A stretch of 64,000 nt of DNA from a virus. Every line of letters starts with the position of its first letter. Positions within the stretch are counted from its first letter, which is position 1. The stretch is taken from positions 26,470-90,469 of the IMG/VR virus record IMGVR_UViG_3300033145_000767. One strand, written 5' to 3'. The notes under the pieces are model-generated. The model was not told the origin of the DNA. It ran no database searches and saw only the letters and a list, made by a program, of their open reading frames with translations. Positions 14,688 through 32,379 of this stretch are shown here, piece after piece. A program made the translations under genes and the position numbers.

Positions 14688-15420
14688 AGTTATTGTGGTG
14701 GATCATGGATACGTTATGTTCACCGCCATACATGTATTTAGAAAGACATATGCTATGCCGGCTACTGACATGTATTTGTCCATGATACTAGGGTATTTAA
14801 GAATACTAGGAGCTACTCTTGATGATACTATAATCATAGCACAGGACAGCTTTAAAGGTTCTTGGCGTAGAAGCATATACCCTGAATATAAAGCCCAGAG
14901 AAAAGGAAACAGGGAGGCCCAAGAGGACAAAGACTGGTGGGATGAGGTATTCGGGGAGTTCAATGACCAAAAGAAAGTACTAGCTAGGGGTTTACCTTGG
15001 AATTGGGTAAGCGTAACACGCATGGAGGCAGACGATATAGCTAGTGTAGCTTGCAGATACTACAAAGATAGGGAAGTAGTACTCGTATCTAGCGATAGTG
15101 ATTGGGGCATGCTCCTACAATATCCGAATGTAAAGATTCTTAGCATTAAAACAAAGAAGTTTAAGGAAGTAAAAGACCCTTTAGCAATCCTCAAAGACAA
15201 AATAGAAAACGGGGACAGAGCAGACAACATCCTAAACAAGCCCAAGAGCGGAAGCGAGTGGGCTGTTAGGAAACAAATCGTGTCGTTGCTGGAATTGCCA
15301 GTTGAGGTAGAAAATGCTATTAAATGGGAATTATCAAACATTAATGTTAAGAGTGCAGATTTATCAGTAATTAGTAGTGGTATGCTTAGAAAGAGATTAA
15401 AAAAAATATATAACATATAA
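14677..15420 (+). CDS. 5'-3' exonuclease / flap endonuclease (T4 RNase H-like)
   Basis: VIVVD, AQD...SWRR.IYPEYKAQR, MEADDIA, VSSDSD, GDRADNI; start moved to ATG 14677 after GGAGG. Confidence 0.9.
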   Translation: MPNKVIVVDHGYVMFTAIHVFRKTYAMPATDMYLSMILGYLRILGATLDDTIIIAQDSFKGSWRRSIYPEYKAQRKGNREAQEDKDWWDEVFGEFNDQKKVLARGLPWNWVSVTRMEADDIASVACRYYKDREVVLVSSDSDWGMLLQYPNVKILSIKTKKFKEVKDPLAILKDKIENGDRADNILNKPKSGSEWAVRKQIVSLLELPVEVENAIKWELSNINVKSADLSVISSGMLRKRLKKIYNI

Positions 15421-16034: not shown

Positions 16035-17906
16035 ATGGATATAGGTAAAAAGCTATTTGAGTATTTAGAGCTTAAATTGCCTGACTTCAATCAGACCAGA
16101 AATAAAAAGGGTAAGATACTATTTACTTGCCCTAATTATTATGGTCATAAGTTTAAAAAAGGTTCTCCTACCGCTATGTTTACTATGGGCGATAGCAAGA
16201 AAATATGTTGTCTCCAATGTGGCTGGAAGGGGGATGCTTATGATGCTGTTAGAACAGTTGAGGCTGATAAGAAAAATTCTGATAATGCAGGCATACTAAA
16301 GCATCTTATGGATATATTGGATTTAGATGTGTTCTCTGAACTTAATGATTATAAAAAACTTGGATTTTCAATACTACCTGTAGCTAGAAATGGTAAAGAG
16401 GCTATTGAACCTAAGTGGCAACAGATAACCCATTATGAAAAAGTAGATTGGATTAAATGGTTAAACAATGGTTTAAATATAGGTCTTAGGACAGGGGAAG
16501 TATCTGGTGTTACTGTAGTTGATTATGATATAAAAGGGGAAGAGACAGAAGAGCAAAAAGCAATTCTTAAGTCTTTACGGGATTCTGATACGCTTGTACA
16601 GAAAACACCAAGTGGGGGTAAACACTTTATTTTTAAGTTTGATGAAGAAGTACCTCAACAAGTAAACTTAGGTGGGATACACATAGATACAAGAAACACA
16701 AATGGTTATGTATTAGTTGCACCTTCTAAAAGAACAGAAGGGGATTATGCTATTGAAGACTTTGGTAAAGAGATTAAAGACATACCAAAGGAAATTAGAG
16801 AATTTATATTAGCTAATGCTAACAAGTCTAAAAAAGAGAAAGATGTTAAAATAATACTAAAAGATGGGGTAGATTTAGGTATAGACTTAACAGCAATAAA
16901 CCAAGTAAAAGAAGGGGACGGTAGAAATACTATAATCACATCTTTAGGGGGTTTATTAATAAAGAAATTTAATATACAACAGACTGCTGACATTGTAAGT
17001 ATAATCAATCATAATTTTTTTACACCCCCTCTATCTAAAAAAGAGATACTAAATACTTTACATAGTTTGGCTAAGTATCAAGATAGTGATGATTTAACGC
17101 ATGAGCAGACTGTATATGATTATTGTAAAGAAATGCAGAGTGATATTACTGCTAGAGATATGATGGATAGTTTACAGTTGCCAAGAGCAACAGTAGATAA
17201 GTATTTATCTAAGTTTAAGAAAGAACATATATTAATTAGGTGTGGCAGGGGGAGATACAAATTTAGAGAGGTAATAGAATGGTCTAAAGAATCTCCTAAG
17301 ACACTTGAAGAATACCCATATGAAATTAAATATTTTAGTGAATGTAACCATTTTCAAACAGGGGATATTCTACTACTTGGGGGTCAAACAAATATAGGTA
17401 AAACAACAATAGCTTTAAATATGTTAAAACATATGATTGCTCAGAATGTTACACCTTACTATATTTATTTAGAATCTGGTAGTAGGTTTCAAAAGACAAG
17501 CAAGATACTAGATATTTCACACAAGTACTTTCATGCCTATCATGCAGACCCAATGAGTATAGATATTATACCTGATAGCTTTACAATAATAGATTGGTTG
17601 CATATTAGTATGAAGGAATATACTGATACAGTATTTAAACATCTTAGTGATGAAATACAAAGAAAAGGTGGCATACTTGTAGTATTTACTCAGTTAAAAG
17701 AAACTAATGATTGGTTTGCCCCTAATTTAATTAAATCTTTTCCTACCTTTGCTTCTAGGTATTTTCAAGATAAAGATAATAAATCAGGGGGCTACTGGAA
17801 AATAGATAAATTAAAAGAACCTAAAGGTAATTATACAAGTTATGAGATACCTTGTCAATATAACTTTGAAACAAGAGAACTAAATAGGAAGGATTTACTT
17901 TACTAA
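16035..17906 (+). CDS. Primase-helicase: Zn finger, Prim-Pol (AEP), PriCT, wHTH and RecA-fold ATPase
   Basis: CPN...CLQC; NIGLRTG.VSG..VVDYD, TPSGGKH, GYVLVAPS; EGDGRN; GGQTNIGKT. Confidence 0.85.
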   Translation: MDIGKKLFEYLELKLPDFNQTRNKKGKILFTCPNYYGHKFKKGSPTAMFTMGDSKKICCLQCGWKGDAYDAVRTVEADKKNSDNAGILKHLMDILDLDVFSELNDYKKLGFSILPVARNGKEAIEPKWQQITHYEKVDWIKWLNNGLNIGLRTGEVSGVTVVDYDIKGEETEEQKAILKSLRDSDTLVQKTPSGGKHFIFKFDEEVPQQVNLGGIHIDTRNTNGYVLVAPSKRTEGDYAIEDFGKEIKDIPKEIREFILANANKSKKEKDVKIILKDGVDLGIDLTAINQVKEGDGRNTIITSLGGLLIKKFNIQQTADIVSIINHNFFTPPLSKKEILNTLHSLAKYQDSDDLTHEQTVYDYCKEMQSDITARDMMDSLQLPRATVDKYLSKFKKEHILIRCGRGRYKFREVIEWSKESPKTLEEYPYEIKYFSECNHFQTGDILLLGGQTNIGKTTIALNMLKHMIAQNVTPYYIYLESGSRFQKTSKILDISHKYFHAYHADPMSIDIIPDSFTIIDWLHISMKEYTDTVFKHLSDEIQRKGGILVVFTQLKETNDWFAPNLIKSFPTFASRYFQDKDNKSGGYWKIDKLKEPKGNYTSYEIPCQYNFETRELNRKDLLY

Positions 17907-18157
17907 TGAATGCTTTTTATAACTTTTGGATAAATCAACTAGGGTATTTGAACATTACTATATTATTAATAGCTGGGTTGATGATAGTTAGTACTAAAAG
18001 AAAAGTTAAGCTTATTGCTTGTTGGTTGTATATACTAAGTAATATTATTATCTTTTTAAGGGGTTATATGACCAATGTAGATTCTTTTATAAGTGCAAGT
18101 CTTATATTTGGTGCATTAACTGTGATAAATATGGTTAGAATATATAAACAAAAGTAG
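17906..18157 (+). CDS. Small three-TM membrane protein
   Basis: Three hydrophobic segments. Confidence 0.5.
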   Translation: MNAFYNFWINQLGYLNITILLIAGLMIVSTKRKVKLIACWLYILSNIIIFLRGYMTNVDSFISASLIFGALTVINMVRIYKQK

Positions 18158-18170
18158 AGGGGGTTTACTA

Positions 18171-18359
18171 ATGGATATTAAAAAAGGTTTAAAAGTTTAC
18201 ACAGATGATTTTTGGTATGATTTAGCCCATGGAGGGTATATACACCCTACAAGTATATGTGTAAAAGAAAGTGATGCTATGAAGGTATTAAACGCTTTAG
18301 CTATAATACAAGATTTTGAAGATTCTTGTGAAGAACAAATAGGGGGGTTTATTCAATGA
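18171..18359 (+). CDS. Hypothetical protein
   Basis: GAGG RBS, ORF track. Confidence 0.5.
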   Translation: MDIKKGLKVYTDDFWYDLAHGGYIHPTSICVKESDAMKVLNALAIIQDFEDSCEEQIGGFIQ

Positions 18360-19066
18360 GTCAAAAGAAACACTATAATATAGGTAGAAAAAACCCAAAT
18401 TGGGGAAGTAAAAGTTTTACCCCAAGTACTATACAAAAATTTAAGAAGTTAAGTTGTAAAGAAAATCATTCACGATGGAAAAAAATACCTAAAAAAATAA
18501 TAGAAGGTTTATATTTAAACCAAAAGCGGTCTATTGCAGAGATAGCTAAAATTCTTAAGTGTAGTACAACTGCTATTTACAATAAGTTACTCTATTATAA
18601 AATTAAGAGAAGAACACAATCAGAGGCTATGAAAGAAAAATTCTTGGGTAGAAAACTATCAAAAGAACATAAAGAAAAAATTAGTAAAAGTAGAATTAAG
18701 AAGAAATCAGCAAGAGGTAAGCATAACCCAATGTTTGGTAAAAAGCATAGCACAAAAACTAGAAGTAAAATGAGTATAATAGCAGGCGGCTCTGGCATAC
18801 CTTATGAAGATAAACAGTATACTTACTATTTTTATAGTATTCGTGATAAAATAAGAAAAGGGGATAAAAATATTTGTCAGTTATGTAAAAAAATTAAACT
18901 AAAGAATGGGAATAATTTAGATGTTCACCATATTGACTACAATAAGAATAATAATAAATTTATTAACTTAATTAGTTTATGTAAAAAGTGCCATCTTAAA
19001 ACAAATAGAAATAGAGAACTTTGGAAGGAAGTGTTTTTACCATGTCGCAACACAATAATTCTTTAG
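18356..19066 (+). CDS. HNH endonuclease with HTH and NUMOD3 repeats
   Basis: SKEHKEKIS, HNPMFGKKHS, CQLC...LDVHHIDYNKNNN...NLISLCKKCH. Confidence 0.85.
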   Translation: MSQKKHYNIGRKNPNWGSKSFTPSTIQKFKKLSCKENHSRWKKIPKKIIEGLYLNQKRSIAEIAKILKCSTTAIYNKLLYYKIKRRTQSEAMKEKFLGRKLSKEHKEKISKSRIKKKSARGKHNPMFGKKHSTKTRSKMSIIAGGSGIPYEDKQYTYYFYSIRDKIRKGDKNICQLCKKIKLKNGNNLDVHHIDYNKNNNKFINLISLCKKCHLKTNRNRELWKEVFLPCRNTIIL

Positions 19067-19377
19067 AGTTGGCTATAGCAGAAGAACTTAAGTCTAGGGG
19101 TTTAGACATATATGCAAGACCTACAAAGGCTAGTGGGGCTAGTACAGAGTTGGGGGATGTAGAGAATAAATTGCTCATGGTTGAAGCAAAGCAACAGCTT
19201 ACAAAGAAACACCTTACTATAAACAGTAATGTATTCCTAGAAAATGAAGCTTTGTTGCCATACAATTCCAAGAAAATAGCAATTATGGCTTTAGAGAATA
19301 AAACCCTAGGAAAGTTAATTGCCTTACGCATGAATGACTTTTTTGACCTTTTAGAAAGAGCAGAAAAAAATGATTAG
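19042..19377 (+). CDS. Holliday junction resolvase, Hjc-like PD-(D/E)XK
   Basis: LELAIA, ASGA...GDV...MVEAK; start moved to ATG 19042. Confidence 0.75.
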   Translation: MSQHNNSLELAIAEELKSRGLDIYARPTKASGASTELGDVENKLLMVEAKQQLTKKHLTINSNVFLENEALLPYNSKKIAIMALENKTLGKLIALRMNDFFDLLERAEKND

Positions 19378-19765
19378 CGAGAAGACAAAATACAACAAGC
19401 TATATTATAAGAAAAATAAAGCTAGAGAATTAGAGCGGGCTAAAAAATGGGCAGTAGATAATAGAGATAAAAGAAGAGCAAGCCTTAAAAAATACTATAG
19501 GGAGAACCCATGGATGAATGCTTATAGAGGAGCAAAGGCTAGGTGCAATAACCAAAATAACAATAGATATAACTCTTATGGTAAGAGGGGTATAAAGTTT
19601 TTATTAACCAAGGAAGAACTAAAGAAGTTATGGTTTAGAGATAAAGCATTTAATATGATTAAGCCTTCTATAGACCGTATTAATAATGATGGGAATTATG
19701 AGTTTAATAATTGTAGATTTATTGAATTAAAGGCTAATTTATTAAAAAGGCATAGTAAGATATAG
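19370..19765 (+). CDS. HNH-like endonuclease without NUMOD1; copy 4 of 5
   Basis: NPW...AKARC...YGKRGI...SIDRINNDGNY...NCRF. Confidence 0.8.
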   Translation: MISEKTKYNKLYYKKNKARELERAKKWAVDNRDKRRASLKKYYRENPWMNAYRGAKARCNNQNNNRYNSYGKRGIKFLLTKEELKKLWFRDKAFNMIKPSIDRINNDGNYEFNNCRFIELKANLLKRHSKI

Positions 19766-20319: not shown

Positions 20320-20561
20320 TAAGAGGCTTTATATTAACAGGGCATCCCTGCCAATACAAATATTATATTAAACTTCAGAAACTTAAGAGTAAAGAGTTTC
20401 CTGAACTGAAAAGTATTAAACAACTTAGGGATAACCCTCAAGCAATATTAATAGAAGTAGGTACTTATTGGTTACACCCCATATATGAAAGGGTACAGAC
20501 ATGGCAAAGAAAAGAAAATCTAAAGAACCAGAAGTGGTTGAACAGGGTAAAGAGAAACTAG
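20316..20561 (+). CDS. Hypothetical protein
   Basis: ORF track. Confidence 0.4.
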   Translation: MIRGFILTGHPCQYKYYIKLQKLKSKEFPELKSIKQLRDNPQAILIEVGTYWLHPIYERVQTWQRKENLKNQKWLNRVKRN

Positions 20562-21481
20562 CTAAGTTAGCAATTAGGGGACTAAATAAAAAATTTGGTT
20601 ATGAAGCTTTAAAACCTGCCTCAGAAGAAAAAGAAAGAGAAAGAATACCTTTTGATTTAGATATTCTAAATGAATTGACAGGTGGGGGTATACCCCTTGG
20701 TATGTTTAGTATTTTATGGGGGAATAAGTCCTGTGGTAAAACTACTCATACTTATGGGCTAATAGCAAGGGCACAGAAAATGGGTAAGTTGTGTGCTTTT
20801 TTTGACTTAGAACATTCTTTTGATACACATTGGGCTAAGAAATTTGGTGTGGATATAGATAAATTATTGATAGGGCATTTTGATACTGCTGAACAAGCTA
20901 TGGATACATTTATAGAATTAGCAGATAAGAAAGCTATAGACTTTGTAGTACTTGATAGTGTTCAATCTTTAAGCCCTGAGGGGGAACAACATAAAAAGAA
21001 GAGTGAAAAGATTAAATCTACAAGTGATGATACAATGGCTCTATTAGCTAGAAAGCTATCACAGTTCTTTAGAATGAGTGGTAATAGGGCATATAAGGCT
21101 AATGTAGGTTTACTTCTTATAGGTCAAGCTAGAGTAGACCTAAGTGGTTTTATACCAATGCAGAAAATAAGTGGTGGTAATGCTTTAGAACATTGGTCTT
21201 CTTTAATTTTACATATAAGAAGGGGTACTAAAGCTAATGCCCCTAGATATAAATTTAATAATGAAGAAGGTAAAAAAAGAGAAATAATTATAGGGTTTGA
21301 TACATGTGTTGTTTTAGATAAAAAGAAACTACCTTTTTGTGCCCCTGAAAAAACAGAAGTTCACTTCCCATTCTTTGAGTCAGCTGGCTGGAATGAACCA
21401 ACAAGGGAACAGATAGAGGAATGCTACGGAGATTGGATAGAATTTGAAAAGGAGGCTGAATCTGATGAAGATAGCGATTAA
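20501..21481 (+). CDS. recA: RecA/UvsX-like recombinase
   Basis: GGGIPLG, GNKSCGKT, FDLEH, VVLDSV, LLARKLSQ, SGGNALEH. Confidence 0.9.
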   Translation: MAKKRKSKEPEVVEQGKEKLAKLAIRGLNKKFGYEALKPASEEKERERIPFDLDILNELTGGGIPLGMFSILWGNKSCGKTTHTYGLIARAQKMGKLCAFFDLEHSFDTHWAKKFGVDIDKLLIGHFDTAEQAMDTFIELADKKAIDFVVLDSVQSLSPEGEQHKKKSEKIKSTSDDTMALLARKLSQFFRMSGNRAYKANVGLLLIGQARVDLSGFIPMQKISGGNALEHWSSLILHIRRGTKANAPRYKFNNEEGKKREIIIGFDTCVVLDKKKLPFCAPEKTEVHFPFFESAGWNEPTREQIEECYGDWIEFEKEAESDEDSD

Positions 21482-22076
21482 ATCCTTAGAAAAAAAGCTA
21501 GGTAAAAAACTAAAAAGAAATCTTACAGTTCTTGGGATAGATTCAGCAAGTACAGCAGGTATGGCTTTATTAAAAGTAAATAGTAGAAGTATAGATTTTA
21601 CAACCCAGAAACTAAAATTTGGTACACATAAAAAAGGTACACCAATTAATAGTAAATTAGATACTGGGATTAAAGCAATTCAAGAATATATTGCTTTTAA
21701 CATACACAAACCAATGGATTTAATTGTCATTGAAAATGCTTATTTAAACTTAAATAAGTATACTTATGGTTTACTTAGAATGTTATCAGGTATATTTTAC
21801 TGTGAGTTTTCAGAGTATTCTAAGGATATTGTATTTTATTATCCTACTGAACATAGAAAGATTACAGGTTTTGATTCTAAAAAAATGAAGGGGGATGCAT
21901 TAAAGAAATTAGTTGTAACTTGGGTTGAATACCTGGGGTTTGGTAAACTATCGCATGATGAAGCAGATGCAATAATGTTAGCTTTAGCAGGCTTAGTTAT
22001 ACAACCCCCTGTGCAACAAGCACTTGAGAAGAAAAAGAAAGTAAAAGCAAAGAAAAAAAGAATTAAAAAAGCTTAG
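21465..22076 (+). CDS. RuvC-like Holliday junction resolvase
   Basis: VLGIDS, IVIEN, YPTEHRK, HDEADA; start moved to ATG 21465. Confidence 0.8.
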   Translation: MKIAIKSLEKKLGKKLKRNLTVLGIDSASTAGMALLKVNSRSIDFTTQKLKFGTHKKGTPINSKLDTGIKAIQEYIAFNIHKPMDLIVIENAYLNLNKYTYGLLRMLSGIFYCEFSEYSKDIVFYYPTEHRKITGFDSKKMKGDALKKLVVTWVEYLGFGKLSHDEADAIMLALAGLVIQPPVQQALEKKKKVKAKKKRIKKA

Positions 22077-22125: not shown

Positions 22126-23085
22126 ATGAAAGATTTACGAAGGTATATTGCTGTAGTTTTGTTACTAACTGTTGTGGGGCTAAACTCTTATGGTATAAAC
22201 AAAAATACTGCACATGCTAATTCAAATGCAAGAGCTACAATTTCATTATCTGGGGGTGTTATTATATTAGCCGATTCTTTTTCTTATTTTATAAAAAATT
22301 ATATTAAAACTAGAGATTCATCTAATAGTGGGATGAAAGAACTAGCCCATAGAGAGCTTGAAAATCATGTAAATATCGCTAGAAATAAAGGAAGTATAAA
22401 AAGCAATAAAATAACAGCCATGATTAATAAAGCTTTTATAATACACAATGAGATTGAAATAGAAAATATAAACAAAAAACCTTCATACAAGTATCTTAAA
22501 TCAGTAACAGTATTTGTAGAGGGGTTACAGCTAGTTTTTAAAACAGAAGACACACCATTTGATGTAAAAAGATGGTCGGGAACAGGTGTAGTAGTTAAGA
22601 TAGATAATAAAAACACCTATATATTAACTAATAAGCATGTAGCTGGTGGTTATAGAGATGGGCATAAAGAAATCTATATTGCAACTGCAAATAGAAAGTA
22701 TACATGTGAAATAGTAAAATTACATAAATCACAGGATTTAGCGTTATTAAAAATAAACGCTGTTTTAAAAGGCAAAGAGGTTGTTAAGGGTTATAATACA
22801 CCTGCTATTACTGAACAGGTATTTACAGTAGGTCATTCTTTAGCCAGACCTTTCATGTATGGTGAAGGTATATTTGCAGGAACAACAATAGAGCATGATG
22901 TTTACCAGTTGCCTACAATCGGAGGTCAATCTGGGAGTGGGGTGTTCAATAAAAATGGTGAATTACTTGGGTTACTATATAGTATATCTGGTACACGAAA
23001 TGGCTTTGGTGTACAATGGGATTTTACTAGGGGTAATGTAGTTAAAAGCGTATATGTTAGAGAATTTTTAGAGGAGAATCTATAA
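22126..23085 (+). CDS. Trypsin-like serine protease with N-terminal signal or TM segment
   Basis: SGTG, LTNKHV, DLALL, GGQSGSG catalytic triad motifs. Confidence 0.9.
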   Translation: MKDLRRYIAVVLLLTVVGLNSYGINKNTAHANSNARATISLSGGVIILADSFSYFIKNYIKTRDSSNSGMKELAHRELENHVNIARNKGSIKSNKITAMINKAFIIHNEIEIENINKKPSYKYLKSVTVFVEGLQLVFKTEDTPFDVKRWSGTGVVVKIDNKNTYILTNKHVAGGYRDGHKEIYIATANRKYTCEIVKLHKSQDLALLKINAVLKGKEVVKGYNTPAITEQVFTVGHSLARPFMYGEGIFAGTTIEHDVYQLPTIGGQSGSGVFNKNGELLGLLYSISGTRNGFGVQWDFTRGNVVKSVYVREFLEENL

Positions 23086-23360
23086 TGAGTGAAATAAATA
23101 AATATAAGAAATGTAAATCAAAGAAGTGTAATAATAAAGTCCATGTTATGCATCCATCAGGGATATGTGCTTTTTGCCCTGTAAAACCATATTGGCAAGA
23201 AGAATTTGAAGATAAAATACAGTTTAGTAATTGGGGTGATTTAGATTTTTTAAGCACTGATTATAACATAGAAAGACTATGTGAAAAATTTATCGGAGAA
23301 GCTAAACAAAAAGTTAAAGTTAAATGTAAAGGTGGAATGATACAGATAGAGAGAATATAA
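23085..23360 (+). CDS. Hypothetical Cys-rich protein
   Basis: GAGGAG RBS, CxxxxC...CxxC. Confidence 0.5.
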   Translation: MSEINKYKKCKSKKCNNKVHVMHPSGICAFCPVKPYWQEEFEDKIQFSNWGDLDFLSTDYNIERLCEKFIGEAKQKVKVKCKGGMIQIERI

Positions 23361-25093
23361 TGGGATTATTTGATGCTATAAAGAAAAAGGAAGCTTTAGC
23401 AAATGGTATACTAAATAACATAGATGAAGTAGATTTTGTTGGGGGTAGAATAACCCTTGATATTGAAACTAATTCTCTTCAAGATAATGCAAAAATACTG
23501 GGGGTTGGTTTAAGAACAAATGACAAAAGTTATTTTGTACCTTTTGAAAGAATAATAGTTGATAAGTTAAGCAAGTTACTTATGAAAGCTGACCCTCTTA
23601 TTCTTCATAATGCTATCTTTGATTTAAACTTATTAAAAATAAATGGGGTAAACTTTACAGAAAATGTATTTTGTACTCAAGTAGCCTCATGGCTAGAAGA
23701 CGAAAATCAATCTCATAAATTAGTAGATTTAACCTTCGTTAAATTTGGGGAAGAGATTACAGAATATAAAGAATTTAGTAACCCTGATTTAATACAATTA
23801 GCTATACATTGTAAAAAGCAAATACCTGCAACAGAAATGTTGTATGATTACTATATGGAAAATCTAGATATACCTATGGATTTGATAAATCTAGAAATGA
23901 AGATTACTCCTATATTGTTACATATGCAGAGGGAAGGGCTATATATAGATGTTGATAAGCTCCTTGACTTAAAAAAAGAATATAAAGTAGAGGTAAAAAA
24001 GCTAGAAAAAGAAGTATTAGCCTTAATGCCTAGTAAAGTAGATATAATGTCCCCAAAGCAACTAAGTAATATGCTCTTTAATATTATGGGGTTTAGACCC
24101 GAGGGGGAGTTAAATAAGGCCGGTTACTATTCAACGGCTAAAGAAGTTCTTAAGAAGTTAGGATTAAAGCATGCAGTAGCAAAGAAGATTTTAGAATTTA
24201 GGGAAAAGATTAAAACTCAAAATACTTATATAGACCCCCTGCTTATTAAAAGATGGGCAGATGGTAAGGTACACACCCATTTTAAGCCTACAGGCACTAG
24301 GGTGGGTAGACTTTCTTCTAAGAACCCTAATGTTCAACAGGTTACAAATAAAGAGCCTAGAATTAGAAAGATATTTAAAGCCCCAAGGGGGTATAAGTTA
24401 TTGATTGCTGATTATAGCCAAATGCATTTAAGGATATTGGCTCACTTTTCACAAGAACCAAAAATGCTTAAAATATTTAATGACCCCAAAGGGGACATTC
24501 ACCAAACTACTGCTGACTTAGTAGGTGTTTCAAGGGATGAAGCAAAGATAGTAAACTTTGGTATACTATATGGATTTTCAGCCGGGAGTTTATCAGAGTT
24601 TTTGAAAGTACCTTATAAAAAAGGTAAGCAAATAATGAAAGAGTATAAAGAAACATATAAGTGTGTGTTTCAGTTTATGGCCCAGGTTATACAGTTCTTT
24701 AAAGCTAATGGTTATGTATATACGCTTCTAGGGAGAAAAAGAAGGTTAATATATGATAGTAGCTTTTCAGAAGGTAAGAAAGGTTATCTAGAAAGGGAAG
24801 CTTTTAACTCAGTAGTTATTGGTAGTGAAGCTGATATAATGAAGACAGGCATGGTTAATGTATATGAATTAACTAAACAATATGGCTTTAGTATGGTTAA
24901 TCAGGTACATGATGAATTAGTGTTACAAATTAAAGAAGAAGATATAACAAAAGAACTGCTATTAAAGGTGCAAGAAGCTTTAGATTATGATTTAGGTTCT
25001 GTTGTAGTTAATAGTGAAATTATAATAGCTGACAACTGGGGAGAGAAAAAGACAGGCGAAAAGTTTGATATAGAAAGCTATGAAGGGATATAA
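23360..25093 (+). CDS. polA: Family A DNA polymerase (3'-5' exo and polymerase domains) with atypical active-site residues
   Basis: LDIET, HNAIFD, GRLSSKNPNVQ, ADYSQMHLR, RDEAKIVNFGILYG, QVHDEL. Confidence 0.95.
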   Translation: MGLFDAIKKKEALANGILNNIDEVDFVGGRITLDIETNSLQDNAKILGVGLRTNDKSYFVPFERIIVDKLSKLLMKADPLILHNAIFDLNLLKINGVNFTENVFCTQVASWLEDENQSHKLVDLTFVKFGEEITEYKEFSNPDLIQLAIHCKKQIPATEMLYDYYMENLDIPMDLINLEMKITPILLHMQREGLYIDVDKLLDLKKEYKVEVKKLEKEVLALMPSKVDIMSPKQLSNMLFNIMGFRPEGELNKAGYYSTAKEVLKKLGLKHAVAKKILEFREKIKTQNTYIDPLLIKRWADGKVHTHFKPTGTRVGRLSSKNPNVQQVTNKEPRIRKIFKAPRGYKLLIADYSQMHLRILAHFSQEPKMLKIFNDPKGDIHQTTADLVGVSRDEAKIVNFGILYGFSAGSLSEFLKVPYKKGKQIMKEYKETYKCVFQFMAQVIQFFKANGYVYTLLGRKRRLIYDSSFSEGKKGYLEREAFNSVVIGSEADIMKTGMVNVYELTKQYGFSMVNQVHDELVLQIKEEDITKELLLKVQEALDYDLGSVVVNSEIIIADNWGEKKTGEKFDIESYEGI

Positions 25094-25126: not shown

Positions 25127-25441
25127 ATGATTAAGTGGCTACCAATTACAATAATATATTACATAATTCACTCAGTAATCTCTTACAAAGTAAATATTGT
25201 AGGGGGTTGGAAGTGGGGGGCAATATGTTATGCTCTAGGTTTCATACCCCTGTGGTTATGGGTGTGCATGGTGTCAGATAACCTATTAAGAGATGGGTTA
25301 ATATTTGATACAGTATTAGTTGTTACATGTGCTTTAACATATGCTTATTTGGGTTATGGTAGTAAGTTTACAGTACTTCAATGGGTAGGTGTAGCAGTAG
25401 CAGTAATAGGGTTTTTAATCATTCAACTAGGGGGTAAATAA
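25127..25441 (+). CDS. Four-TM SMR/EamA-like small membrane protein
   Basis: Four TM segments; FTVLQWVGVAVAVIG resembles a DMT terminal helix. Confidence 0.55.
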   Translation: MIKWLPITIIYYIIHSVISYKVNIVGGWKWGAICYALGFIPLWLWVCMVSDNLLRDGLIFDTVLVVTCALTYAYLGYGSKFTVLQWVGVAVAVIGFLIIQLGGK

Positions 25442-25851
25442 TGTATACTGAAATGTACGCTAAGCTAGCTTTAGCATTATGCATTGGTTATTTACTTGGC
25501 ATTGATAGGGGAAGGTTTCAGAAACCTGCAGGACTTAGAGACCTTATATTCGTAACACTATCGGGGTGCTTATGCTCACTATTAGGGCTAGAACTACTAA
25601 AAATGGGTATGCCAAATGTAGATATGTCAAGAGTTTTATACGCCCCAATTATAGGGCTAGGGTTTTTAGGTAGTGGGGTTATTATACAATATAAACAAAA
25701 CATAGAAGGTATCACAACAGCTAGTCTTTTATTATTATCAGTAATTCTAGGGCTACTTTGTGGCATAGGCTCATATGAAATAGTCTGTGTAGCAACTTTA
25801 GTATCTTATATAGTTTTAAAAGGAAAGTTTGTGGAAGGGGTGAAAAAGTAA
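25441..25851 (+). CDS. MgtC/SapB family membrane protein
   Basis: LGIDR...KPAGLR, IGLGFLGSGVI, EGITTAS. Confidence 0.9.
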   Translation: MYTEMYAKLALALCIGYLLGIDRGRFQKPAGLRDLIFVTLSGCLCSLLGLELLKMGMPNVDMSRVLYAPIIGLGFLGSGVIIQYKQNIEGITTASLLLLSVILGLLCGIGSYEIVCVATLVSYIVLKGKFVEGVKK

Positions 25852-27763: not shown

Positions 27764-29202
27764 GAGTAAAAAGATTATACCTTAATAATTTTAAACTATT
27801 TATAGAAGAAAATATAGAGCCTAAAGGTCTTAATATTTTTATAGGGGATAATAGGGATAATGAAAGTTCTAACGCTTCTGGTAAGTCTACACTAGCTTTA
27901 GAGGCTTTAATGTTCGTATTATATGGGTATACTACTGCTAAATTAGCAGATACTATTTCTAAAGGTAAAAATATGGCATCTGTAGAAGTTTTACTAGAGT
28001 TAAAAGGTATTGAGTATAAGATTAGTAGAGAAATACCAAGTAAGCTCTATATGGAAGTTAATGGCGAGGAAAAGCAATTTGCTACAGCTACTATAGCCCA
28101 AAAATATATTAACGCCATCTTTGGGGATGTTGACTTCTTTAAAAAGTTTAGAACTCTTGATATGCAAAGCGGTATAAACCTATTAGACTTAGGTAATACT
28201 TCTTTAAAGAATTTACTTATGCAATTTATACAAGATTACTTTACCAAGATAAGAAAATCTTTACAAGAGAAGAAACAAAACATGGCTAGATTTCACATCA
28301 AGCATAGAATATTCACACATTTTTATTCTGAGAAAAGAATAGCAGTACTTGACAAACAAATTACTAGGCTTAAGGGTGAATTTGGTTCTACTAAGGGAGA
28401 CCCTAATACACAAGCTAGAGAGATATATAGTGAGTTATGTGGAAGTAATACTGCAATTATTAATATAGCACAACATCTTGAAGAGATTAGTAGAAATAAC
28501 TGCCCTACATGCAATAGGAAACTTCCTAAAGAGATAAATAAGAAACTAGTAGATGAACTTAATGAAGAGTTAGATATAGCTACAGATAGGAGCCAAGAAC
28601 TTACAGAACAGTTAGGTAAAACTAATAAAGATATAGGAAATTATAACAAAAGGTTAGAAGAAGTACATAATGATTTAAACCATGTTCGTGAGTTAAAGCA
28701 AAAAATAGAGCATATGAAAATATTAAAAGACTATAAATATACTGATAGGGATGTATCAATCTATACTAGTTCCCTGAGGGTACTTGATAATTTCTCTGCT
28801 CTTTATATAGAAAATTGGTTAGCAAGTTTGAGTGTTATAATCAACGCATTGTTAAAAGAAATAAATATAAGTATCAAATTTGATGCTACCAAAGAATTTA
28901 TGACAATACAAGATGGTACAGAAACAATGAAGTATGACCAGCTTAGCACAGGTCAAAAAAGATTTCTTAACATAATATTTAAGTTATCAATATTAATGCA
29001 TAAAAATTTAGAAGGTATTATAGTAATAGATGAGGGAATAGATGCCTTAGATATTACTAATCTTAAAAGATTAATTAGAGTATTTGAATCTTTACCTTTT
29101 CAAGTATTTTTAATATCTCAACACTCTGACATAAAGAGTTTGAAAGATGTTAAATGTTTTAATATACTTAGGCAAAACAACAAGGCTAAGGTGGTTGCAT
29201 GA
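27760..29202 (+). CDS. SbcC/Rad50-like ABC ATPase
   Basis: NASGKST, Zn hook CPTC, LSTGQ, VIDEG. Confidence 0.9.
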   Translation: MRVKRLYLNNFKLFIEENIEPKGLNIFIGDNRDNESSNASGKSTLALEALMFVLYGYTTAKLADTISKGKNMASVEVLLELKGIEYKISREIPSKLYMEVNGEEKQFATATIAQKYINAIFGDVDFFKKFRTLDMQSGINLLDLGNTSLKNLLMQFIQDYFTKIRKSLQEKKQNMARFHIKHRIFTHFYSEKRIAVLDKQITRLKGEFGSTKGDPNTQAREIYSELCGSNTAIINIAQHLEEISRNNCPTCNRKLPKEINKKLVDELNEELDIATDRSQELTEQLGKTNKDIGNYNKRLEEVHNDLNHVRELKQKIEHMKILKDYKYTDRDVSIYTSSLRVLDNFSALYIENWLASLSVIINALLKEINISIKFDATKEFMTIQDGTETMKYDQLSTGQKRFLNIIFKLSILMHKNLEGIIVIDEGIDALDITNLKRLIRVFESLPFQVFLISQHSDIKSLKDVKCFNILRQNNKAKVVA

Positions 29203-29642
29203 GTGCGAAAGGTATAAGATTCTATAAAAGAAACCCTTGGTTAAGGCACTATTATAATGCTAAAACTAGATGCGAAAATATTAAATATAAAAATTATAAA
29301 AACTATGGAGGTAGAGGAATAAAGTTTTTATTAACCAAAGAAGAAATAAAGACTATATGGTTTAGGGATAAAGCATGGTTATTAAATAAACCAAGTATAG
29401 ATAGGGTAAACAATGATGAAGATTATACTTATGGTAATTGTAGGTTTATAGAGATAGAAGAAAACAGAATTAAAGATAGTATAAAGGGTGTAAATCAATA
29501 TAATTTAGAGGGTGTTTTTATCTGTAATTGGAAAAGTGCCAGACAGATAGAAAGAATATTAGGTATACCTAATAGTAATATTTCTAGTGTATGTAAGGGA
29601 AAAAGAATATCAGCACATGGGTATACTTGGAGGTTTATATAA
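29199..29642 (+). CDS. HNH-like endonuclease with NUMOD1-like domain; copy 5 of 5
   Basis: NPW...AKTRC...YGGRGI...SIDRVNNDEDY...NCRF; VNQYNLEG. Confidence 0.8.
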   Translation: MSAKGIRFYKRNPWLRHYYNAKTRCENIKYKNYKNYGGRGIKFLLTKEEIKTIWFRDKAWLLNKPSIDRVNNDEDYTYGNCRFIEIEENRIKDSIKGVNQYNLEGVFICNWKSARQIERILGIPNSNISSVCKGKRISAHGYTWRFI

Positions 29643-30157
29643 TGAGAAAAGAACCTAAATGGAAATATTTTGTAAGAATGGCTCACTTCTTAATGGGTAG
29701 GTTTGGTTTTGATAAGCCCTTAGTTGTGGTACGAGATAATAGAATTGATTGTCCCTGCTGTGTAGATGATTGGAATGACGCAGAAAAGATTAAAATTCAA
29801 TACCACTCAAGAAGACTTGGGCGGGTTCCTTACTGTTATGTACTTAGTTTCTTACTACACGAAATAGGTCATTTAGTTAATGAAATGCCTTATGCTACAG
29901 ATATGGAAGTAATTGAAAGCGAAAGGGAAGCAGAACGATTCTCTAATGAAACCATTAAAGAAGAGTACCCTGAAGTATACAAACAAATGATAAAGGAGAT
30001 GAGAAAAAGAAAAAGCTTAGTAAAAATATTTAGAGAAAAAACCTGTAGAAACCCATACTATTGGGCATACAAAGAATTAAAAGAGTATAAAATAACTACA
30101 TCAAAGGAGGATAAGAAATGGTTAAGAAAAAAAGAGAGCCAATTAAAATCCCTGTAG
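29642..30157 (+). CDS. HExxH Zn metallopeptidase-like protein (ImmA/IrrE-like)
   Basis: LLHEIGH...EREAERF; start moved to ATG 29642. Confidence 0.65.
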   Translation: MRKEPKWKYFVRMAHFLMGRFGFDKPLVVVRDNRIDCPCCVDDWNDAEKIKIQYHSRRLGRVPYCYVLSFLLHEIGHLVNEMPYATDMEVIESEREAERFSNETIKEEYPEVYKQMIKEMRKRKSLVKIFREKTCRNPYYWAYKELKEYKITTSKEDKKWLRKKESQLKSL

Positions 30158-30753
30158 AAGTTAGAAAAGCAAAAGAAAAAGAAGTAAATCACATCACTTT
30201 AGATTATGGGGATAAGGTATATTCAGCTATACTAAATAAGTATAGACGCGTATTTATGTATGGTAATATATCTACTACCTCAGCAGAAGAGCTTAACAAA
30301 AAATTAATTGCTATGTCTATTGATAGCCCTGAAAAACCTATTACCATAGAAATAAATAGTGGAGGTGGAAGTTGTATAGCAGGTCTTTCTATAATAGACA
30401 CAATTGAAAGTCTATCTTGCCCTGTGTACACAATAATAACAGGTGTTTCAGCCTCTATGGCAACATTTATTAGCATAGCGGGGGATAGAAGGTTCATCAC
30501 AAAAAATGCTTATTGGATGGCACACCCTATCAGCTTAATGAAAGCAGATTATATTGGGTTTTTAAAAGATAGTATGCCTTGGTTGAAGGGGCTAGAAAAA
30601 AGATGCTTATCCATGTATTTAAAGAAAACTAATCTACCTAAAGAAACCATTGAAAAATGCAAGCGTGGGGAAGTGTGGTTAAATGCAAAGCAATGCATTA
30701 AGTATAATGTAGCAGATGAAATTCTTAAAAAACAAGTAATAGTAAGGAGATAA
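30118..30753 (+). CDS. clpP: ClpP-like protease
   Basis: INSGGG, ASMA (Ser), WMAHP (His), WLNA...VADEI. Confidence 0.9.
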   Translation: MVKKKREPIKIPVEVRKAKEKEVNHITLDYGDKVYSAILNKYRRVFMYGNISTTSAEELNKKLIAMSIDSPEKPITIEINSGGGSCIAGLSIIDTIESLSCPVYTIITGVSASMATFISIAGDRRFITKNAYWMAHPISLMKADYIGFLKDSMPWLKGLEKRCLSMYLKKTNLPKETIEKCKRGEVWLNAKQCIKYNVADEILKKQVIVRR

Positions 30754-30755
30754 TA

Positions 30756-31448
30756 ATGCGGACAGCCCTCATAACAGGAAGTTCTAAAGGAATAGGTTAC
30801 CAAATAGCTAAAGATTTTTTAGCTAAAGGTTACTATGTTATTACGAACTCAAGAAAAATGCAGTATGATTTACCTGAAAATCAGCTACATTTATGTGGGG
30901 ATTTATCTAGCCATAAAGGATGTATGTCTTTATGTTCTAAAGTTAAAGACTTAGATACTAAGTTAGATAGCATTGTTCTAAGTGTAGGTGTAACAGATAG
31001 AACCCCTTTTGGGAATATTAAATACTCTAACTGGGGTAAAGTTATAGATACAAATTTAAACCTACCTTTTTTCCTAGTTCAGCAGTTGAAAGAATGTATC
31101 AAACGCAATGGTAGTATAATTTTTATTTCATCTGTTCTAGGTAGTCTCCCTAGGTCAAGAAGTATATCCTATGGGGTTTCAAAAGGGGCATTAGAACCTT
31201 TAATTAAATACCTAGCTGTAGAGTTTACATATAATAATATTACTGTCAATGGTGTAGCTCCAGGGTTTATTAACACAGATTGGCATAAAGGTAAAACAAA
31301 AAAAATACTTAATAGTATTAAGTATTCTATACCTATGGGTAGATTTGGTAGCACTAAAGAGATTAGCAGTACTGTAATGTTCTTAGCTAATAATAGGTAT
31401 ATTACAGGGCAGATGATTACTGTAGATGGGGGGTATAGCTTAGCATGA
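30756..31448 (+). CDS. Short-chain dehydrogenase/reductase
   Basis: TGSSKGIG, YGVSK, VAPGFINT, ITVDGG. Confidence 0.9.
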   Translation: MRTALITGSSKGIGYQIAKDFLAKGYYVITNSRKMQYDLPENQLHLCGDLSSHKGCMSLCSKVKDLDTKLDSIVLSVGVTDRTPFGNIKYSNWGKVIDTNLNLPFFLVQQLKECIKRNGSIIFISSVLGSLPRSRSISYGVSKGALEPLIKYLAVEFTYNNITVNGVAPGFINTDWHKGKTKKILNSIKYSIPMGRFGSTKEISSTVMFLANNRYITGQMITVDGGYSLA

Positions 31449-31933
31449 TTACCACTAAGGTAATAGAGCCTAAAGTATTAGTTAAGTACCTAAGTAATAA
31501 AGTTAGAGATTGGTGTAAAGGGTGTAAAAGGTATGCACAAAATTTGCCTTGTTGCCCGCCAAGCTTAATGCCTATAAAAAGGTATAAGCGTTTGATTCTA
31601 TCTTATAAAAACGCAATGCTAATAGCTGTTAAATTCGATATTGATAGTGAAATACATTGGAAAGTACAGGGCAGAGAATCAAGCAAACTATTAGTATCTA
31701 TACTAAAGTCTTATGCGAAAGAATTTAAAAACCATATAATCTTTGGGGCAGGGTCTTGCAAAAGCTGTGATATTTGTAGTAACCCCTGTAAAAACCTTAA
31801 AGGTAAAGTAATAGCAGTAGAAGCTATTGGTATCAATGTGGTTAAGTTAATGGCAGAGCAAACAGATATTAAACTATTTTTCCCTGTAGAAAAGAAGGGC
31901 TACTTTTATAGAATAGGGTTATTATTATGGTAA
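31445..31933 (+). CDS. DUF2284-like metal-binding protein (copy 2)
   Basis: VRDWCKGCKRY...CCPP, GAGSCKSCDIC...PC, EAIGINV. Confidence 0.8.
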   Translation: MITTKVIEPKVLVKYLSNKVRDWCKGCKRYAQNLPCCPPSLMPIKRYKRLILSYKNAMLIAVKFDIDSEIHWKVQGRESSKLLVSILKSYAKEFKNHIIFGAGSCKSCDICSNPCKNLKGKVIAVEAIGINVVKLMAEQTDIKLFFPVEKKGYFYRIGLLLW

Positions 31934-32379
31934 ATGTAACCAATTTATATGTTCCAGGCACTTTTGACCTATTCCATGTAGGGCATATTAGAATGTTTAA
32001 GTATGCATCTAAGTTTGGGAATGTAATTGCAGGGGTCAGTACTGATGAACTAGTACTCTCATATAAGAATTTAGCTCCTATATACCCATTTAAGGAGAGA
32101 TGGGAGACGGTTGATGCATGTAGATATGTTAATAGGGTAATTCCTCAGAGAAAATTTTTTAGTATTCCACAACTAAAGAAATTAAATATATGCTATGTTA
32201 TACTTGGTAGCGATTGGGAAGGTAAAGACTTCCCTGAATTAGACCAAGCCCAAAAAGCTTTAGGTTTTGAGATAATATATAAACCTTATACAGAAGAAAC
32301 AAGTTCATCAAAAATAAAAGAGAGAATTATTCGTAATAGCTTTGATATTATTAAAGCTCAACTAGAAAGAGACCTATAA
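31927..32379 (+). CDS. Cytidylyltransferase (TagD-like, HxGH)
   Basis: GTFDLFHVGH, GVSTDE, GSDW, YTEETSSS. Confidence 0.9.
   Translation: MVNVTNLYVPGTFDLFHVGHIRMFKYASKFGNVIAGVSTDELVLSYKNLAPIYPFKERWETVDACRYVNRVIPQRKFFSIPQLKKLNICYVILGSDWEGKDFPELDQAQKALGFEIIYKPYTEETSSSKIKERIIRNSFDIIKAQLERDL

What the first reader, a model, noticed from the sequence alone, without database searches (positions are those of the whole stretch)
23360..25093. Family A polymerase with a remodelled sugar gate, minor-groove network and ExoIII motif
Seen: motif A reads DYSQMHLR (His356, codon 24425-24427) where PolA has DYSQIELR. The N-x3-Q motif reads NSVVIGS (Ile487, 24818-24820) instead of NxPxQG. TGRLSS is VGRLSS, NLQNIP is NVQQVT, and ExoIII YxxxD reads HCKKQ (23807-23821). 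Both catalytic Asp, the GRLSS Arg and motif B K/F/Y are intact. Established: the motif A Glu (Klenow E710, Taq E615) is the steric gate against 2'-OH nucleotides, Klenow Q849 works with R668 and N845 on the minor-groove face of the new base pair, and the ExoIII Asp (D501) is a metal ligand for proofreading. Inference: several multi-base substitutions clustered in one pocket of an otherwise intact gene look like adaptation to a non-standard substrate (2'-substituted or other sugar, or a minor-groove-modified base), not decay.
Basis: partly seen in the sequence, partly recalled or inferred. Interest (0 to 1): 0.85.

Follow-up and report, generated by a model that had tools for sequence, protein, structure and literature searches.

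The report
Phage DNA polymerase with histidine sugar gate
This uncultured phage copies its DNA with a Pol I-type polymerase in which four normally fixed residues around the incoming nucleotide have changed together as one linked set, a natural redesign that also arose separately in a very large group of other uncultured phages and whose effect on the enzyme has never been measured.

Summary
ORF 23360-25093 (+) is an intact 577-aa family A polymerase with His356 for the steric-gate Glu, Ile487 for the motif-6 Gln, VGR for TGR, NVQQVT for NLQNIP and HCKKQ for ExoIII YxxxD. All catalytic residues are kept.

New here:
- The changes are fixed in all 6 members of a small isolated clade (46-100% identity).
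- A fourth linked change exists, Ala to Glu490 (Klenow A852).
- The same quartet (Thr to Val/Ala, Glu to His, Gln to Ile/Val/Leu, Ala to Glu/Asp) occurs in two other groups: 120 of 120 listed clusters of an uncultured ~42-kb phage family, and a 4-member group.
- It occurs in 0 of 377 other PolAs examined.
- Tree tests show at least two independent origins.
- A 96%-complete genome of the large family shows no nucleotide-modification gene.

The core set therefore looks like a compensated re-wiring of the Arg-Glu-Gln cluster. It is not, by itself, a sign of exotic DNA.

Specific to this clade are the ExoIII loss, Asp105 to Cys, NVQQVT, and nearby MazZ-like, NDT-like and DeoC-like genes. These keep a modified-nucleotide reading open.

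The scan has already noted His-gate PolAs in other genomes. I found no paper describing them.

The parts
23360..25093 (+). Family A DNA polymerase gene, 577 aa (3'-5' exo-like domain plus polymerase domain). It is the only PolA in the complete 90,469-bp genome.
   Evidence: no PolB; no RNase_T-type exonuclease
23459..23467 (+). ExoI D34-x-E36, kept
   Evidence: invariant in 6 of 6 clade members
23609..23623 (+). ExoII N84-x3-D88, kept
23672..23674 (+). Cys105 at a column that is Asp in 483 of 483 other PolAs with a residue there (the 'DT' position after ExoII)
23807..23821 (+). ExoIII position reads H150-C-K-K-Q154 instead of Y-x3-D. Clade members have HCK[KR]Q.
   Evidence: Only 2 of 427 other PolAs that keep the ExoI and ExoII acids lack the ExoIII Asp.
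24302..24310 (+). TGR motif reads V315-G316-R317 (Klenow T666-G667-R668). The Arg is kept.
24329..24346 (+). N324-V-Q326-Q327-V-T329 in place of NLQNIP. N327Q and P329T are specific to this clade.
24410..24433 (+). Motif A D351-Y-S-Q-M-H356-L-R358. His356 (24425-24427) stands at the steric-gate Glu (Klenow E710, Taq E615).
24545..24571 (+). Motif B K396, F400 and Y404 intact
24806..24829 (+). Motif 6 N483-S-V-V-I487-G-S-E490. Ile487 stands at Klenow Q849. Glu490 stands at Klenow A852 and is the newly noticed fourth linked position.
24908..24916 (+). Motif C H517-D518-E519 intact

Best explanation
This is the phage's active replicative DNA polymerase, working on ordinary dNTPs. Its nucleotide pocket carries a compensated re-wiring of the conserved polar cluster under the nascent base pair.

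In canonical PolAs the minor-groove Arg (Klenow R668), the motif-A Glu (E710), the motif-6 Gln (Q849) and the motif-C Asp lie together and interact electrostatically. Here:
- The Arg and both catalytic Asp are kept.
- The Glu is His356.
- The Gln is Ile487.
- The Thr two residues before the Arg is Val315.
- A new acid, Glu490, appears three residues after the lost Gln.

Inferred: the negative charge that partners the Arg has moved from motif A to the motif-6 helix. The imidazole now forms the floor under the sugar and still blocks a 2'-OH, as aromatic gates do in other polymerase families. The template-side minor-groove hydrogen bond of the Gln is lost.

Shown: the four changes are linked, are under selection, and arose at least twice.

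Not shown: any change in substrate choice.

Separately, and only in this clade, the proofreading site has lost the ExoIII Tyr and Asp and a universal Asp (to Cys105). Yet the domain stays as conserved as the polymerase domain. Proofreading is therefore probably weak or works differently (inferred).
For: (1) Intact gene with all catalytic and dNTP-binding residues. It is the only PolA and there is no PolB in a complete genome with terminal repeats.

(2) 6 of 6 clade members (46-100% identity) carry V/H/[IV]/E.

(3) The same quartet occurs in 4 of 4 g3 proteins (A/H/L/E). Among the 120 listed clusters of family g2 (52-100% identity), 117 carry it complete (V/H/[LI]/D) and the other 3 have V/H/L with a gap at the fourth column. 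Alignment of g2 to Klenow confirms E710 to H, Q849 to L, A852 to D and T666 to V.

(4) Among 377 other PolAs: 0 His, 0 non-Gln, 0 Glu/Asp at the 490 column, and 1 Val at the 315 column.

(5) Trees built without the four columns need 3 changes of state. AU tests reject all three groups as one clade (p 0.0004), this clade plus g2 (p 2e-17) and g3 plus g2 (p 6e-35).

[quoted passage not shown] Linked change at these sites is therefore expected from contact.

(7) The 96%-complete g2 genome G002 shows no nucleotide-modification gene among the ORFs scanned, 20 by Pfam and 10 of those also by PHROGs. Thymidylate-synthase-family and PurZ-family searches were negative there, with positive controls.

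(8) A cryo-EM paper on PolAs of phages with hypermodified thymine reports that the major groove stays solvent-exposed (PMC13697223, passages). Major-groove base modification, the common kind in phages, therefore would not call for these changes.
Against: - No biochemical or structural data exist. That this segment is helical is recalled, not tested.
- Only one g2 genome was annotated, several of its ORFs have no family, and its plus-strand block (about 20.7-41 kb; I assumed it is structural and did not test this) was not scanned.
- This genome does carry a MazZ-like dATP/dGTP diphosphohydrolase domain (PF18909, 2.7e-21; phrog_801), a DeoC-like protein (Atlas structure TM 0.79-0.83), an NDT-like protein (weak evidence) and glycosyltransferases. 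These fit a manipulated nucleotide pool.
- The clade has extra minor-groove-motif changes (N327Q, P329T) not seen in g2. P329 is Gln in g3.
- A single origin of this clade and g3 is not rejected (p 0.51). Convergence therefore rests on two events, not three.
Confidence: 0.55

Rival explanations
1. One reading: the pocket is adapted to a non-standard substrate. The phage replaces or modifies a nucleotide (altered sugar, or a purine with a changed minor-groove face). The polymerase has lost the Glu and Gln contacts that would reject it. Proofreading is altered so that the new nucleotide is not excised.
For: - The same genome has a MazZ-like dATP/dGTP diphosphohydrolase domain (2.7e-21, phrog_801 5.7e-20), directly after an NDT-like ORF and near a DeoC-like ORF.
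- It also has an AAA_33 kinase, an MFS/BT1 transporter, glycosyltransferases and a radical SAM/DUF2284 pair.
- The distant clade member's contig G001 shares the kinase, the transporter, the NDT-like ORF, a metallophosphatase and GT2. It also has weak MazZ and NDT profile hits.
- Changes specific to this clade sit in the minor-groove-tracking motif (N327Q, P329T) and in the exonuclease site.
- Major-groove modifications would not need pocket changes (PMC13697223 passages), so a pocket change would point to the sugar or the minor groove.
Against: - The core His/hydrophobic/Val/acid set is not specific to such genomes. It is fixed in the large g2 family, whose near-complete genome shows no such genes.
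- PurZ and thymidylate-synthase-family genes are absent from this complete genome, with positive controls. The TET/JBP search also found nothing, but its control rang nowhere, so it is not evidence of absence.
- The radical SAM, first DUF2284, TAGT-like and DeoC-like genes have no blastp match at 1e-5 in G001, which is only 42% complete.
- A His side chain would still block a 2'-OH sterically (inference).
- No natural DNA with a modified sugar is known (recalled).
Confidence: 0.2
2. The quartet changes enzyme behaviour without any change in genome chemistry. Examples: relaxed sugar or mismatch discrimination (a faster, lower-fidelity or lesion- or ribo-tolerant replicase), altered metal or pH dependence, or resistance to a host-made nucleotide analogue. 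Phages select it for that reason.
For: - It recurs at least twice and is fixed in a very large family. That is more easily explained by an advantage than by drift through deleterious intermediates.
- Review passages report that mutations of R668, E710 and N845 in Klenow decrease fidelity, and that Q849A alters misinsertion (PMC10520511).
- In this clade ExoIII is also lost.
Against: - No data on activity exist.
- g2 and g3 keep the ExoIII Asp, so low fidelity is not a shared trait.
- A 90-kb genome needs reasonable fidelity (inference).
- No defence or counter-defence link was found.
Confidence: 0.17
3. Artefact or decay: sequencing or assembly error at these codons, or a polymerase that is no longer functional.
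For: Read support could not be examined. The ExoIII catalytic residues are missing.
Against: - Six contigs from different sources carry the same residues.
- The frame is open for 577 aa and all polymerase catalytic residues are present.
- It is the only PolA in a complete genome.
- Both domains are conserved equally across the clade.
Confidence: 0.03

Closest known systems
Bacterial DNA polymerase I large fragments (Klenow, KlenTaq, Bst LF)
   Same: - Best solved relatives by sequence: KlenTaq 4e-64, Klenow 1e-58, Bst 1e-54.
- The nearest sequences outside the clade are bacterial Pol I at 34% identity.
- Same domain order (exo-like plus pol), and the same motifs A, B and C, TGR Arg, motif-6 Asn and Q677 equivalent.
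   Different: - No 5'-nuclease domain; a separate FEN-like gene lies at 14623-15420.
- Steric-gate Glu to His, Q849 to Ile, T666 to Val, A852 to Glu.
- NLQNIP to NVQQVT.
- ExoIII YxxxD to HCKKQ, and the universal Asp105 to Cys.
Uncultured phage PolA family 'g2' (for example IMG/VR UViG_3300033153_002310, locus L035 / P0388) and group 'g3' (P0154, P0269-P0271).
   Same: They carry the same linked quartet at the same four columns: V/H/L(I)/D in g2 and A/H/L/E in g3.
   Different: - Only 26-34% identical to this protein.
- g2 is a separate origin.
- Both keep the ExoIII Asp, Asp105 and the motif Asn (N327 here). g2 also keeps the Pro of NLQNIP; g3 has Gln there.
- The g2 genomes are about 40-46 kb, and G002 has 46% GC.
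- No g2-type polymerase is found in cultured phages at E 1e-30.
DpoZ (2-aminoadenine-specific PolAs of Z-genome phages)
   Same: A phage family A polymerase in a genome that also has a MazZ-type (PF18909) domain.
   Different: - No PurZ-family gene.
- Czernecki et al. 2023 report that both DpoZ clusters carry Phe at motif-B position B4 (PMC10201439 passage). Here that position is Tyr404.
- No sequence affinity to DpoZ was seen among the nearest relatives. This was not specifically tested.
Aromatic steric gates of other polymerase families (Tyr in family B)
   Same: A ring side chain under the sugar of the incoming nucleotide. This is 'works like', by inference only. The family B Tyr gate is stated in the abstract of PMC10639073 (search listing).
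   Different: Different fold position and family. The gate here is His rather than Tyr/Phe. It was not tested.
PolAs with degenerate proofreading domains (Taq Pol I; APEX clusters of Czernecki et al. 2023)
   Same: An exo-like domain is retained while catalytic residues are missing (PMC10201439 passages).
   Different: - Those lose the DxE motif. Here DxE and the ExoII Asp are kept and only ExoIII (plus Asp105) is changed, a combination seen in 2 of 427 comparable PolAs.
- The domain is as conserved as the polymerase domain.

Membership tests
Family A DNA polymerase (Pfam PF00476) | Profile match above the curated cut-off | tested here: met
   315.3 bits against a cut-off of 34.3; 316.9 bits in the genome search
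Family A DNA polymerase (Pfam PF00476) | Catalytic Asp of motif A and the His-Asp-Glu of motif C | tested here: met
   D351, H517, D518, E519
Family A DNA polymerase (Pfam PF00476) | Motif B Lys / Phe / Tyr (Klenow K758, F762, Y766) | tested here: met
   K396, F400, Y404
Family A DNA polymerase (Pfam PF00476) | Steric-gate Glu in motif A (position A2 of Czernecki et al. 2023) | tested here: not met
   His356. The 377 background PolAs have Glu in 370 and Asp in 7.
Family A DNA polymerase (Pfam PF00476) | TGR motif (Thr-Gly-Arg) | tested here: not met
   The motif reads Val-Gly-Arg. The Gly and Arg are present; the Thr is Val315. Czernecki et al. state that only their cluster 14 replaces the Thr, by Ala (passage).
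Family A DNA polymerase (Pfam PF00476) | Motif 6 Asn-x3-Gln | tested here: not met
   Asn483 is present; the Gln is Ile487.
DEDDy 3'-5' exonuclease domain (Pfam PF01612) | Profile match above the curated cut-off | tested here: met
   40.4 bits against a cut-off of 23.6
DEDDy 3'-5' exonuclease domain (Pfam PF01612) | ExoI D-x-E and ExoII N-x3-D | tested here: met
   D34, E36, N84, D88
DEDDy 3'-5' exonuclease domain (Pfam PF01612) | ExoIII Y-x3-D | tested here: not met
   H150-C-K-K-Q154, aligned without gaps to YAKKD, YSCSD and YAAED of outgroups
DpoZ | Co-occurrence with PurZ (adenylosuccinate-synthetase family) | tested here: not met
   PF00709 absent from the complete genome; the control rang in 14 of 14 genomes.
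DpoZ | Phe at motif-B position B4 (Czernecki et al. 2023) | tested here: not met
   Tyr404; paper passage
His-gate PolA (informal: the linked quartet seen here and in earlier scan notes) | Thr to Val/Ala, Glu to His, Gln to Ile/Val/Leu and Ala to Glu/Asp at Klenow 666, 710, 849 and 852 | tested here: met
   V315, H356, I487, E490
His-gate PolA (informal: the linked quartet seen here and in earlier scan notes) | Altered nucleotide selectivity | not testable with these tools

The most novel reading that the evidence does not exclude
The linked quartet really changes what the pocket accepts: a 2'-substituted sugar, or a purine with an altered minor-groove face. In this clade it works together with a rebuilt exonuclease site (Cys105, His150, Gln154 beside the retained Asp34, Glu36, Asp88, possibly a different metal centre). 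It also works with a phage-encoded route that hydrolyses a canonical purine dNTP (MazZ-like), removes its base (NDT-like) and degrades the sugar phosphate (DeoC-like). The virion DNA would then carry an undescribed nucleotide made without PurZ, thymidylate-synthase-type or TET enzymes.
Probability: 0.13. Interest if true: 0.9.

Novelty: new variant of a known kind. Interest (0 to 1): 0.58.

Why it matters
The motif-A Glu, the motif-6 Gln and the TGR Thr are treated as fixed in family A polymerases. The Glu is the textbook reason these enzymes exclude ribonucleotides.

Nature has replaced all three, and added a relocated acid, at least twice, including in a phage family with over a hundred sequence clusters. 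That gives a ready-made, evolution-tested alternative pocket.

It can be tested directly with the wild-type enzyme against its revertants. The outcome bears on how sugar and minor-groove checking work in PolAs, and on engineering polymerases for modified nucleotides.

For phage biology it is a caution. A rewired polymerase pocket alone should not be read as evidence of exotic DNA.

This particular clade is still the best place to look for one, because of its extra exonuclease changes and its purine-dNTP-hydrolase neighbourhood.

Tried and rejected
- Sequencing error: rejected. Six contigs agree.
- Gene decay: rejected.
- DpoZ / Z-genome: rejected. There is no PurZ and B4 is Tyr.
- hmC/hmU-type pathway: no thymidylate-synthase-family gene. 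The TET/JBP search was also negative, but its control rang in no genome, so it says nothing.
- More clade members with context. IMG/VR gave only L003. The GTDB genome scan gave none, so no prophage or host. The 1.84-billion-representative search gave one representative for the clade, with the next hit at 351 against 1124 bits.
- Cultured relatives: the polymerase is at most 33% identical to any INPHARED record. The protein of ORF 57318-58922 (- strand), which I took for the terminase without testing it, has no match at 1e-10. The PrimPol matches only at 30% over 40% of its length.
- g3 context: P0154 lies on a 2,337-bp contig and the longest g3 contig is 6.6 kb. It was not found in IMG/VR.
- Sequencing runs: none was listed, and no RNA holder was listed.
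- Three independent origins: not established. This clade plus g3 as one clade is not rejected (p 0.51).
- Two further rows with a non-Gln letter at the 487 column (L110_8303, L114_330) keep Glu at the gate. They are divergent and probably shifted in the alignment there. I did not count them as His-type.
- Literature. I found no paper describing a natural His at the PolA steric gate. Searches: (E615H/E710H/E658H/E480H, 0 papers).
  - Passages read: PMC10201439, PMC13697223, PMC10520511, PMC11348598 ('histidine' and 'steric' occur 0 times).
The motif logos of Czernecki et al. (their Figure 3 and supplements) could show a His minority that I could not see.
Full report
**Observation**

The window holds an open frame at 23360-25093 (+) of 577 aa. 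It matches Pfam DNA_pol_A (7.2e-94, 315 bits) and DNA_pol_A_exo1 (3.5e-10). Its best solved relatives are KlenTaq (4e-64), Klenow (1e-58) and Bst LF (1e-54).

The printed alignment to KlenTaq pairs these motifs:
- DYSQMHLR with DYSQIELR
- AFNSVVIGSEADIMK with AFNMPVQGTAADLMK
- TRVGRLSS with TATGRLSS
- PNVQQVT with PNLQNIP

The catalytic and nucleotide-binding residues are all present: D351, H517, D518, E519, R317, K396, F400, Y404, N483, Q326. So are ExoI D34/E36 and ExoII N84/D88.

**The clade**

A search of 5.8 billion clustered proteins found five near relatives (81, 80, 79, 63 and 46% identity, each on its own contig of 18-91 kb). Identity then drops to 34% in bacterial Pol I (120 of 7,623 hits listed).

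A profile search of 1.84 billion representatives gave one representative for the clade (1,124 bits). The next hit scored 351 bits, so the clade is small and isolated.

All six members keep TRVGR, DYSQMHLR, NSV[VI][IV]GSEADI, PN[VT]QQ[VI]T and HCK[KR]Q.

The exo-like domain is as conserved across the clade as the palm and fingers. Identity is 52% against 49% to the farthest member, and 81-86% against 79-86% to the near ones. This is selection, not decay.

The genome is a complete 90,469-bp virus record with direct terminal repeats. It has this one PolA, no PolB and no RNase_T-type exonuclease.

**A fourth linked position, and the same set elsewhere**

I aligned everything fetched to one profile and read the columns.

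Among 377 PolAs that are not His-type (searches lists), the tallies are:

| Column | Residues found |
|---|---|
| gate (356) | Glu 370, Asp 7 |
| 487 | Gln 377 |
| 315 | Thr 368, Ser 8, Val 1 |
| 490 | never Glu or Asp |

His at the gate appears in three groups only:
- This clade: 6 of 6, V/H/[IV]/E.
- Group g3: P0154 and three relatives at 72-76% identity, 4 of 4, A/H/L/E.
- Family g2: first met as IMG/VR loci L028, L035 and L043 among the 80 loci. All 120 listed clusters (52-100% identity, many on 40-46-kb contigs) carry Val/His/Leu (Ile in 3); 117 of them have Asp at the fourth column and 3 have a gap there.

The Klenow alignment of a g2 protein shows directly T666 to V, E710 to H, Q849 to L and A852 to D.

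The unit of change is therefore a quartet. The acid at Klenow 852 (Glu490 here) is new.

**Independence**

Trees were built without the four columns. They place g2 inside a fully supported clade (100, starred) with Glu/Gln-type phage polymerases (L088, L021, and in the smaller tree also L012 and L016). They need three changes of state.

AU test results:

| Rows held together | p-AU | Outcome |
|---|---|---|
| all His rows (mixture model) | 0.0004 | rejected |
| this clade + g2 | 2e-17 | rejected |
| g3 + g2 | 6e-35 | rejected |
| this clade + g3 | 0.51 | not rejected |

At least two origins are shown. A third is possible: in the 57-row tree g3 sits in a starred set with seven Glu/Gln rows.

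Caveats: these are quick searches. The last three tests use LG+G4 on 36 rows, because the larger test did not finish.

**What the quartet most likely is**

A review of Bst polymerase states that Q797, R615, E658 and D830 (Klenow Q849, R668, E710, D882) lie close together and interact electrostatically. It also states that R615 and the Gln hydrogen-bond to the DNA (PMC10520511, passages). Linked change at these sites is what direct contact predicts.

In the His-type enzymes:
- The Arg and Asp stay.
- The Glu becomes His.
- The Gln and the TGR Thr become hydrophobic.
- An acid appears three residues after the Gln position. That would be the same face of a helix, if this segment is helical as I recall for Klenow.

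My reading is that the carboxylate partnering the Arg has been moved from motif A to motif 6. An imidazole now forms the floor under the sugar.

A ring under the sugar is how family B polymerases gate the 2'-OH (abstract of PMC10639073, search listing). I therefore expect ribonucleotide exclusion to survive, and the template-side minor-groove hydrogen bond to be lost. All of this is inference. Nothing here measures activity.

**Does it signal unusual DNA?**

The comparative evidence says not by itself.

G002, the 41,713-bp g2 record (CheckV 96% complete, 46% GC), shares only the polymerase with this phage. I scanned 20 of its ORFs with Pfam, mainly on the polymerase's strand, and 10 of those also with PHROGs. 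They gave two DNA methyltransferases, HHH, RNase H-like, AAA_24, AAA_25, PD-(D/E)XK and an endonuclease VII-like protein. Nothing for nucleotide synthesis or modification appeared.

PF18909, thymidylate-synthase and PurZ profiles are also absent there.

Structures of PolAs from phages with hypermodified thymine leave the major groove open to solvent (PMC13697223, passages). The common phage base modifications therefore do not require pocket changes at all.

Three changes are specific to it, at columns that are at least 95% conserved elsewhere:
- N327Q and P329T in NLQNIP.
- Asp105 to Cys. That column is Asp in 483 of 483 other PolAs.
- ExoIII Tyr to His and Asp to Gln.

Among 427 other PolAs that keep the ExoI and ExoII acids, only 2 lack the ExoIII Asp.

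The genome also encodes:
- A MazZ-type dATP/dGTP diphosphohydrolase domain at 11946-12407 (PF18909 2.7e-21; phrog_801).
- Directly before it, an ORF (11356-11949) whose GTxGE-type motif resembles nucleoside deoxyribosyltransferases. The motif is recalled. Pfam found nothing for this ORF. The syntenic region of G001 gives a 20-bit PF05014 hit on a neighbouring ORF.
- A DeoC-like protein at 10265-10978 (Atlas structure TM 0.79-0.83 to DeoC clusters).
- A kinase, an MFS/BT1 transporter, two DUF2284 proteins, a weak radical SAM hit, a cytidylyltransferase, and LicD/GT1, GT2 and TAGT-like glycosyltransferases.

The distant relative G001 (73.6 kb, 42% complete) is syntenic. It shares the kinase, the transporter, the NDT-like ORF, a metallophosphatase and GT2. 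At 1e-5 it does not share the radical SAM, first DUF2284, TAGT-like or DeoC-like genes.

This is suggestive of nucleotide-pool manipulation, but nothing ties it to the polymerase.

**Comparison with what is known**

The enzyme is a family A polymerase by profile and catalytic core. It fails three of the family's 'conserved position' features (steric-gate Glu, TGR Thr, motif-6 Gln) and the ExoIII motif of its DEDDy domain.

It is not a DpoZ: there is no PurZ, and B4 is Tyr rather than Phe.

Czernecki et al. 2023 sorted PolAs into 19 clusters. They treat A2 (the gate) and the TGR Thr as conserved, and note only one cluster with Ala for the Thr (passages). Yutin et al. 2024 do not mention the gate.

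Five literature searches found no description of a natural His gate in PolA. Figures and supplements were not available to me.

Earlier notes of this scan report His-gate PolAs, some with a 'relocated acid', in several other phage genomes. I saw these notes after finding g2, g3 and column 490 myself. They agree, but they are not independent evidence.

**Verdict**

This is a real, selected and at least twice-evolved re-wiring of a textbook active site. It is a new variant of a known kind of enzyme.

The best-supported reading is a compensated network swap in a working replicase (0.55). Adaptation to a non-standard nucleotide is possible for this clade (0.2). A change of selectivity or fidelity without exotic DNA is also possible (0.17).

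Noticed in passing
window 10265-12407: A DeoC-like ORF (10265-10978; Atlas structure TM 0.79-0.83 to DeoC clusters), an NDT-like ORF (11356-11949; a recalled motif only, with no Pfam or PHROG hit) and a MazZ-type dATP/dGTP diphosphohydrolase domain (11946-12407; PF18909 2.7e-21). Together they could take a purine dNTP apart. The NDT-like and MazZ-like genes are syntenic in the distant relative G001.
   Followed up: partly
window 235-813, 12747-13202, 14073-14687, 18356-19066, 19370-19765, 29199-29642: At least six HNH/NUMOD-type homing-endonuclease-like ORFs are scattered through the replication module. Five of them hit the same single ORF of G001 (72118-72555) in blastp, so they are a paralogous family that has spread within this genome.
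   Followed up: partly
window 30118-36357: ClpP-like protease, SDR, a second DUF2284, a cytidylyltransferase, a 639-aa LicD + GT1 fusion and a GT2, all in one block. This looks like a CDP-activated sugar- or alditol-phosphate transfer pathway (teichoic-acid-like chemistry) carried by a phage. The target, DNA or cell surface, is unknown.
   Followed up: no
window 1670-4686: A weak radical SAM hit (26 bits, below the cut-off), DUF2284, and a glycosyltransferase hitting TAGT (28 bits) and phrog_842 'beta-glucosyl-HMC-alpha-glucosyltransferase' (1e-15). The genome has no thymidylate-synthase-family gene. A TET/JBP search was also negative, but its control rang in no genome. These three genes have no blastp match in G001.
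   Followed up: partly
window 25127-25851: Directly after the polymerase come a 104-aa membrane-like ORF and an MgtC-family protein (2e-25). MgtC is unusual cargo for a phage replication module. Neither had a blastp match in G001.
   Followed up: no
window 23085-23360: A 91-aa Cys-rich ORF ends on the polymerase's start codon (TAATG overlap), which suggests translational coupling. It and the trypsin-like peptidase before it (22126-23085) are absent at this place in G001, where the homologue of window ORF 21444-22076 abuts the polymerase.
   Followed up: partly
window 20501-21481 and 38175-38792: Two RecA-family genes in one phage genome: 326 aa (RecA 2e-37) and 205 aa (RecA 4e-25).
   Followed up: no
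genome 8799-15696 (before the window; L001): A cluster of three amidoligase-like ORFs plus a RimK-like ATP-grasp ORF. An earlier scan note likens this combination to phiEco32-like phages; I did not check that.
   Followed up: no
L121 (G002) 4376-5173 and 17732-18349: The g2 phage with the convergent His-gate polymerase carries two DNA methyltransferases (N6_N4_Mtase and MT-A70).
   Followed up: no
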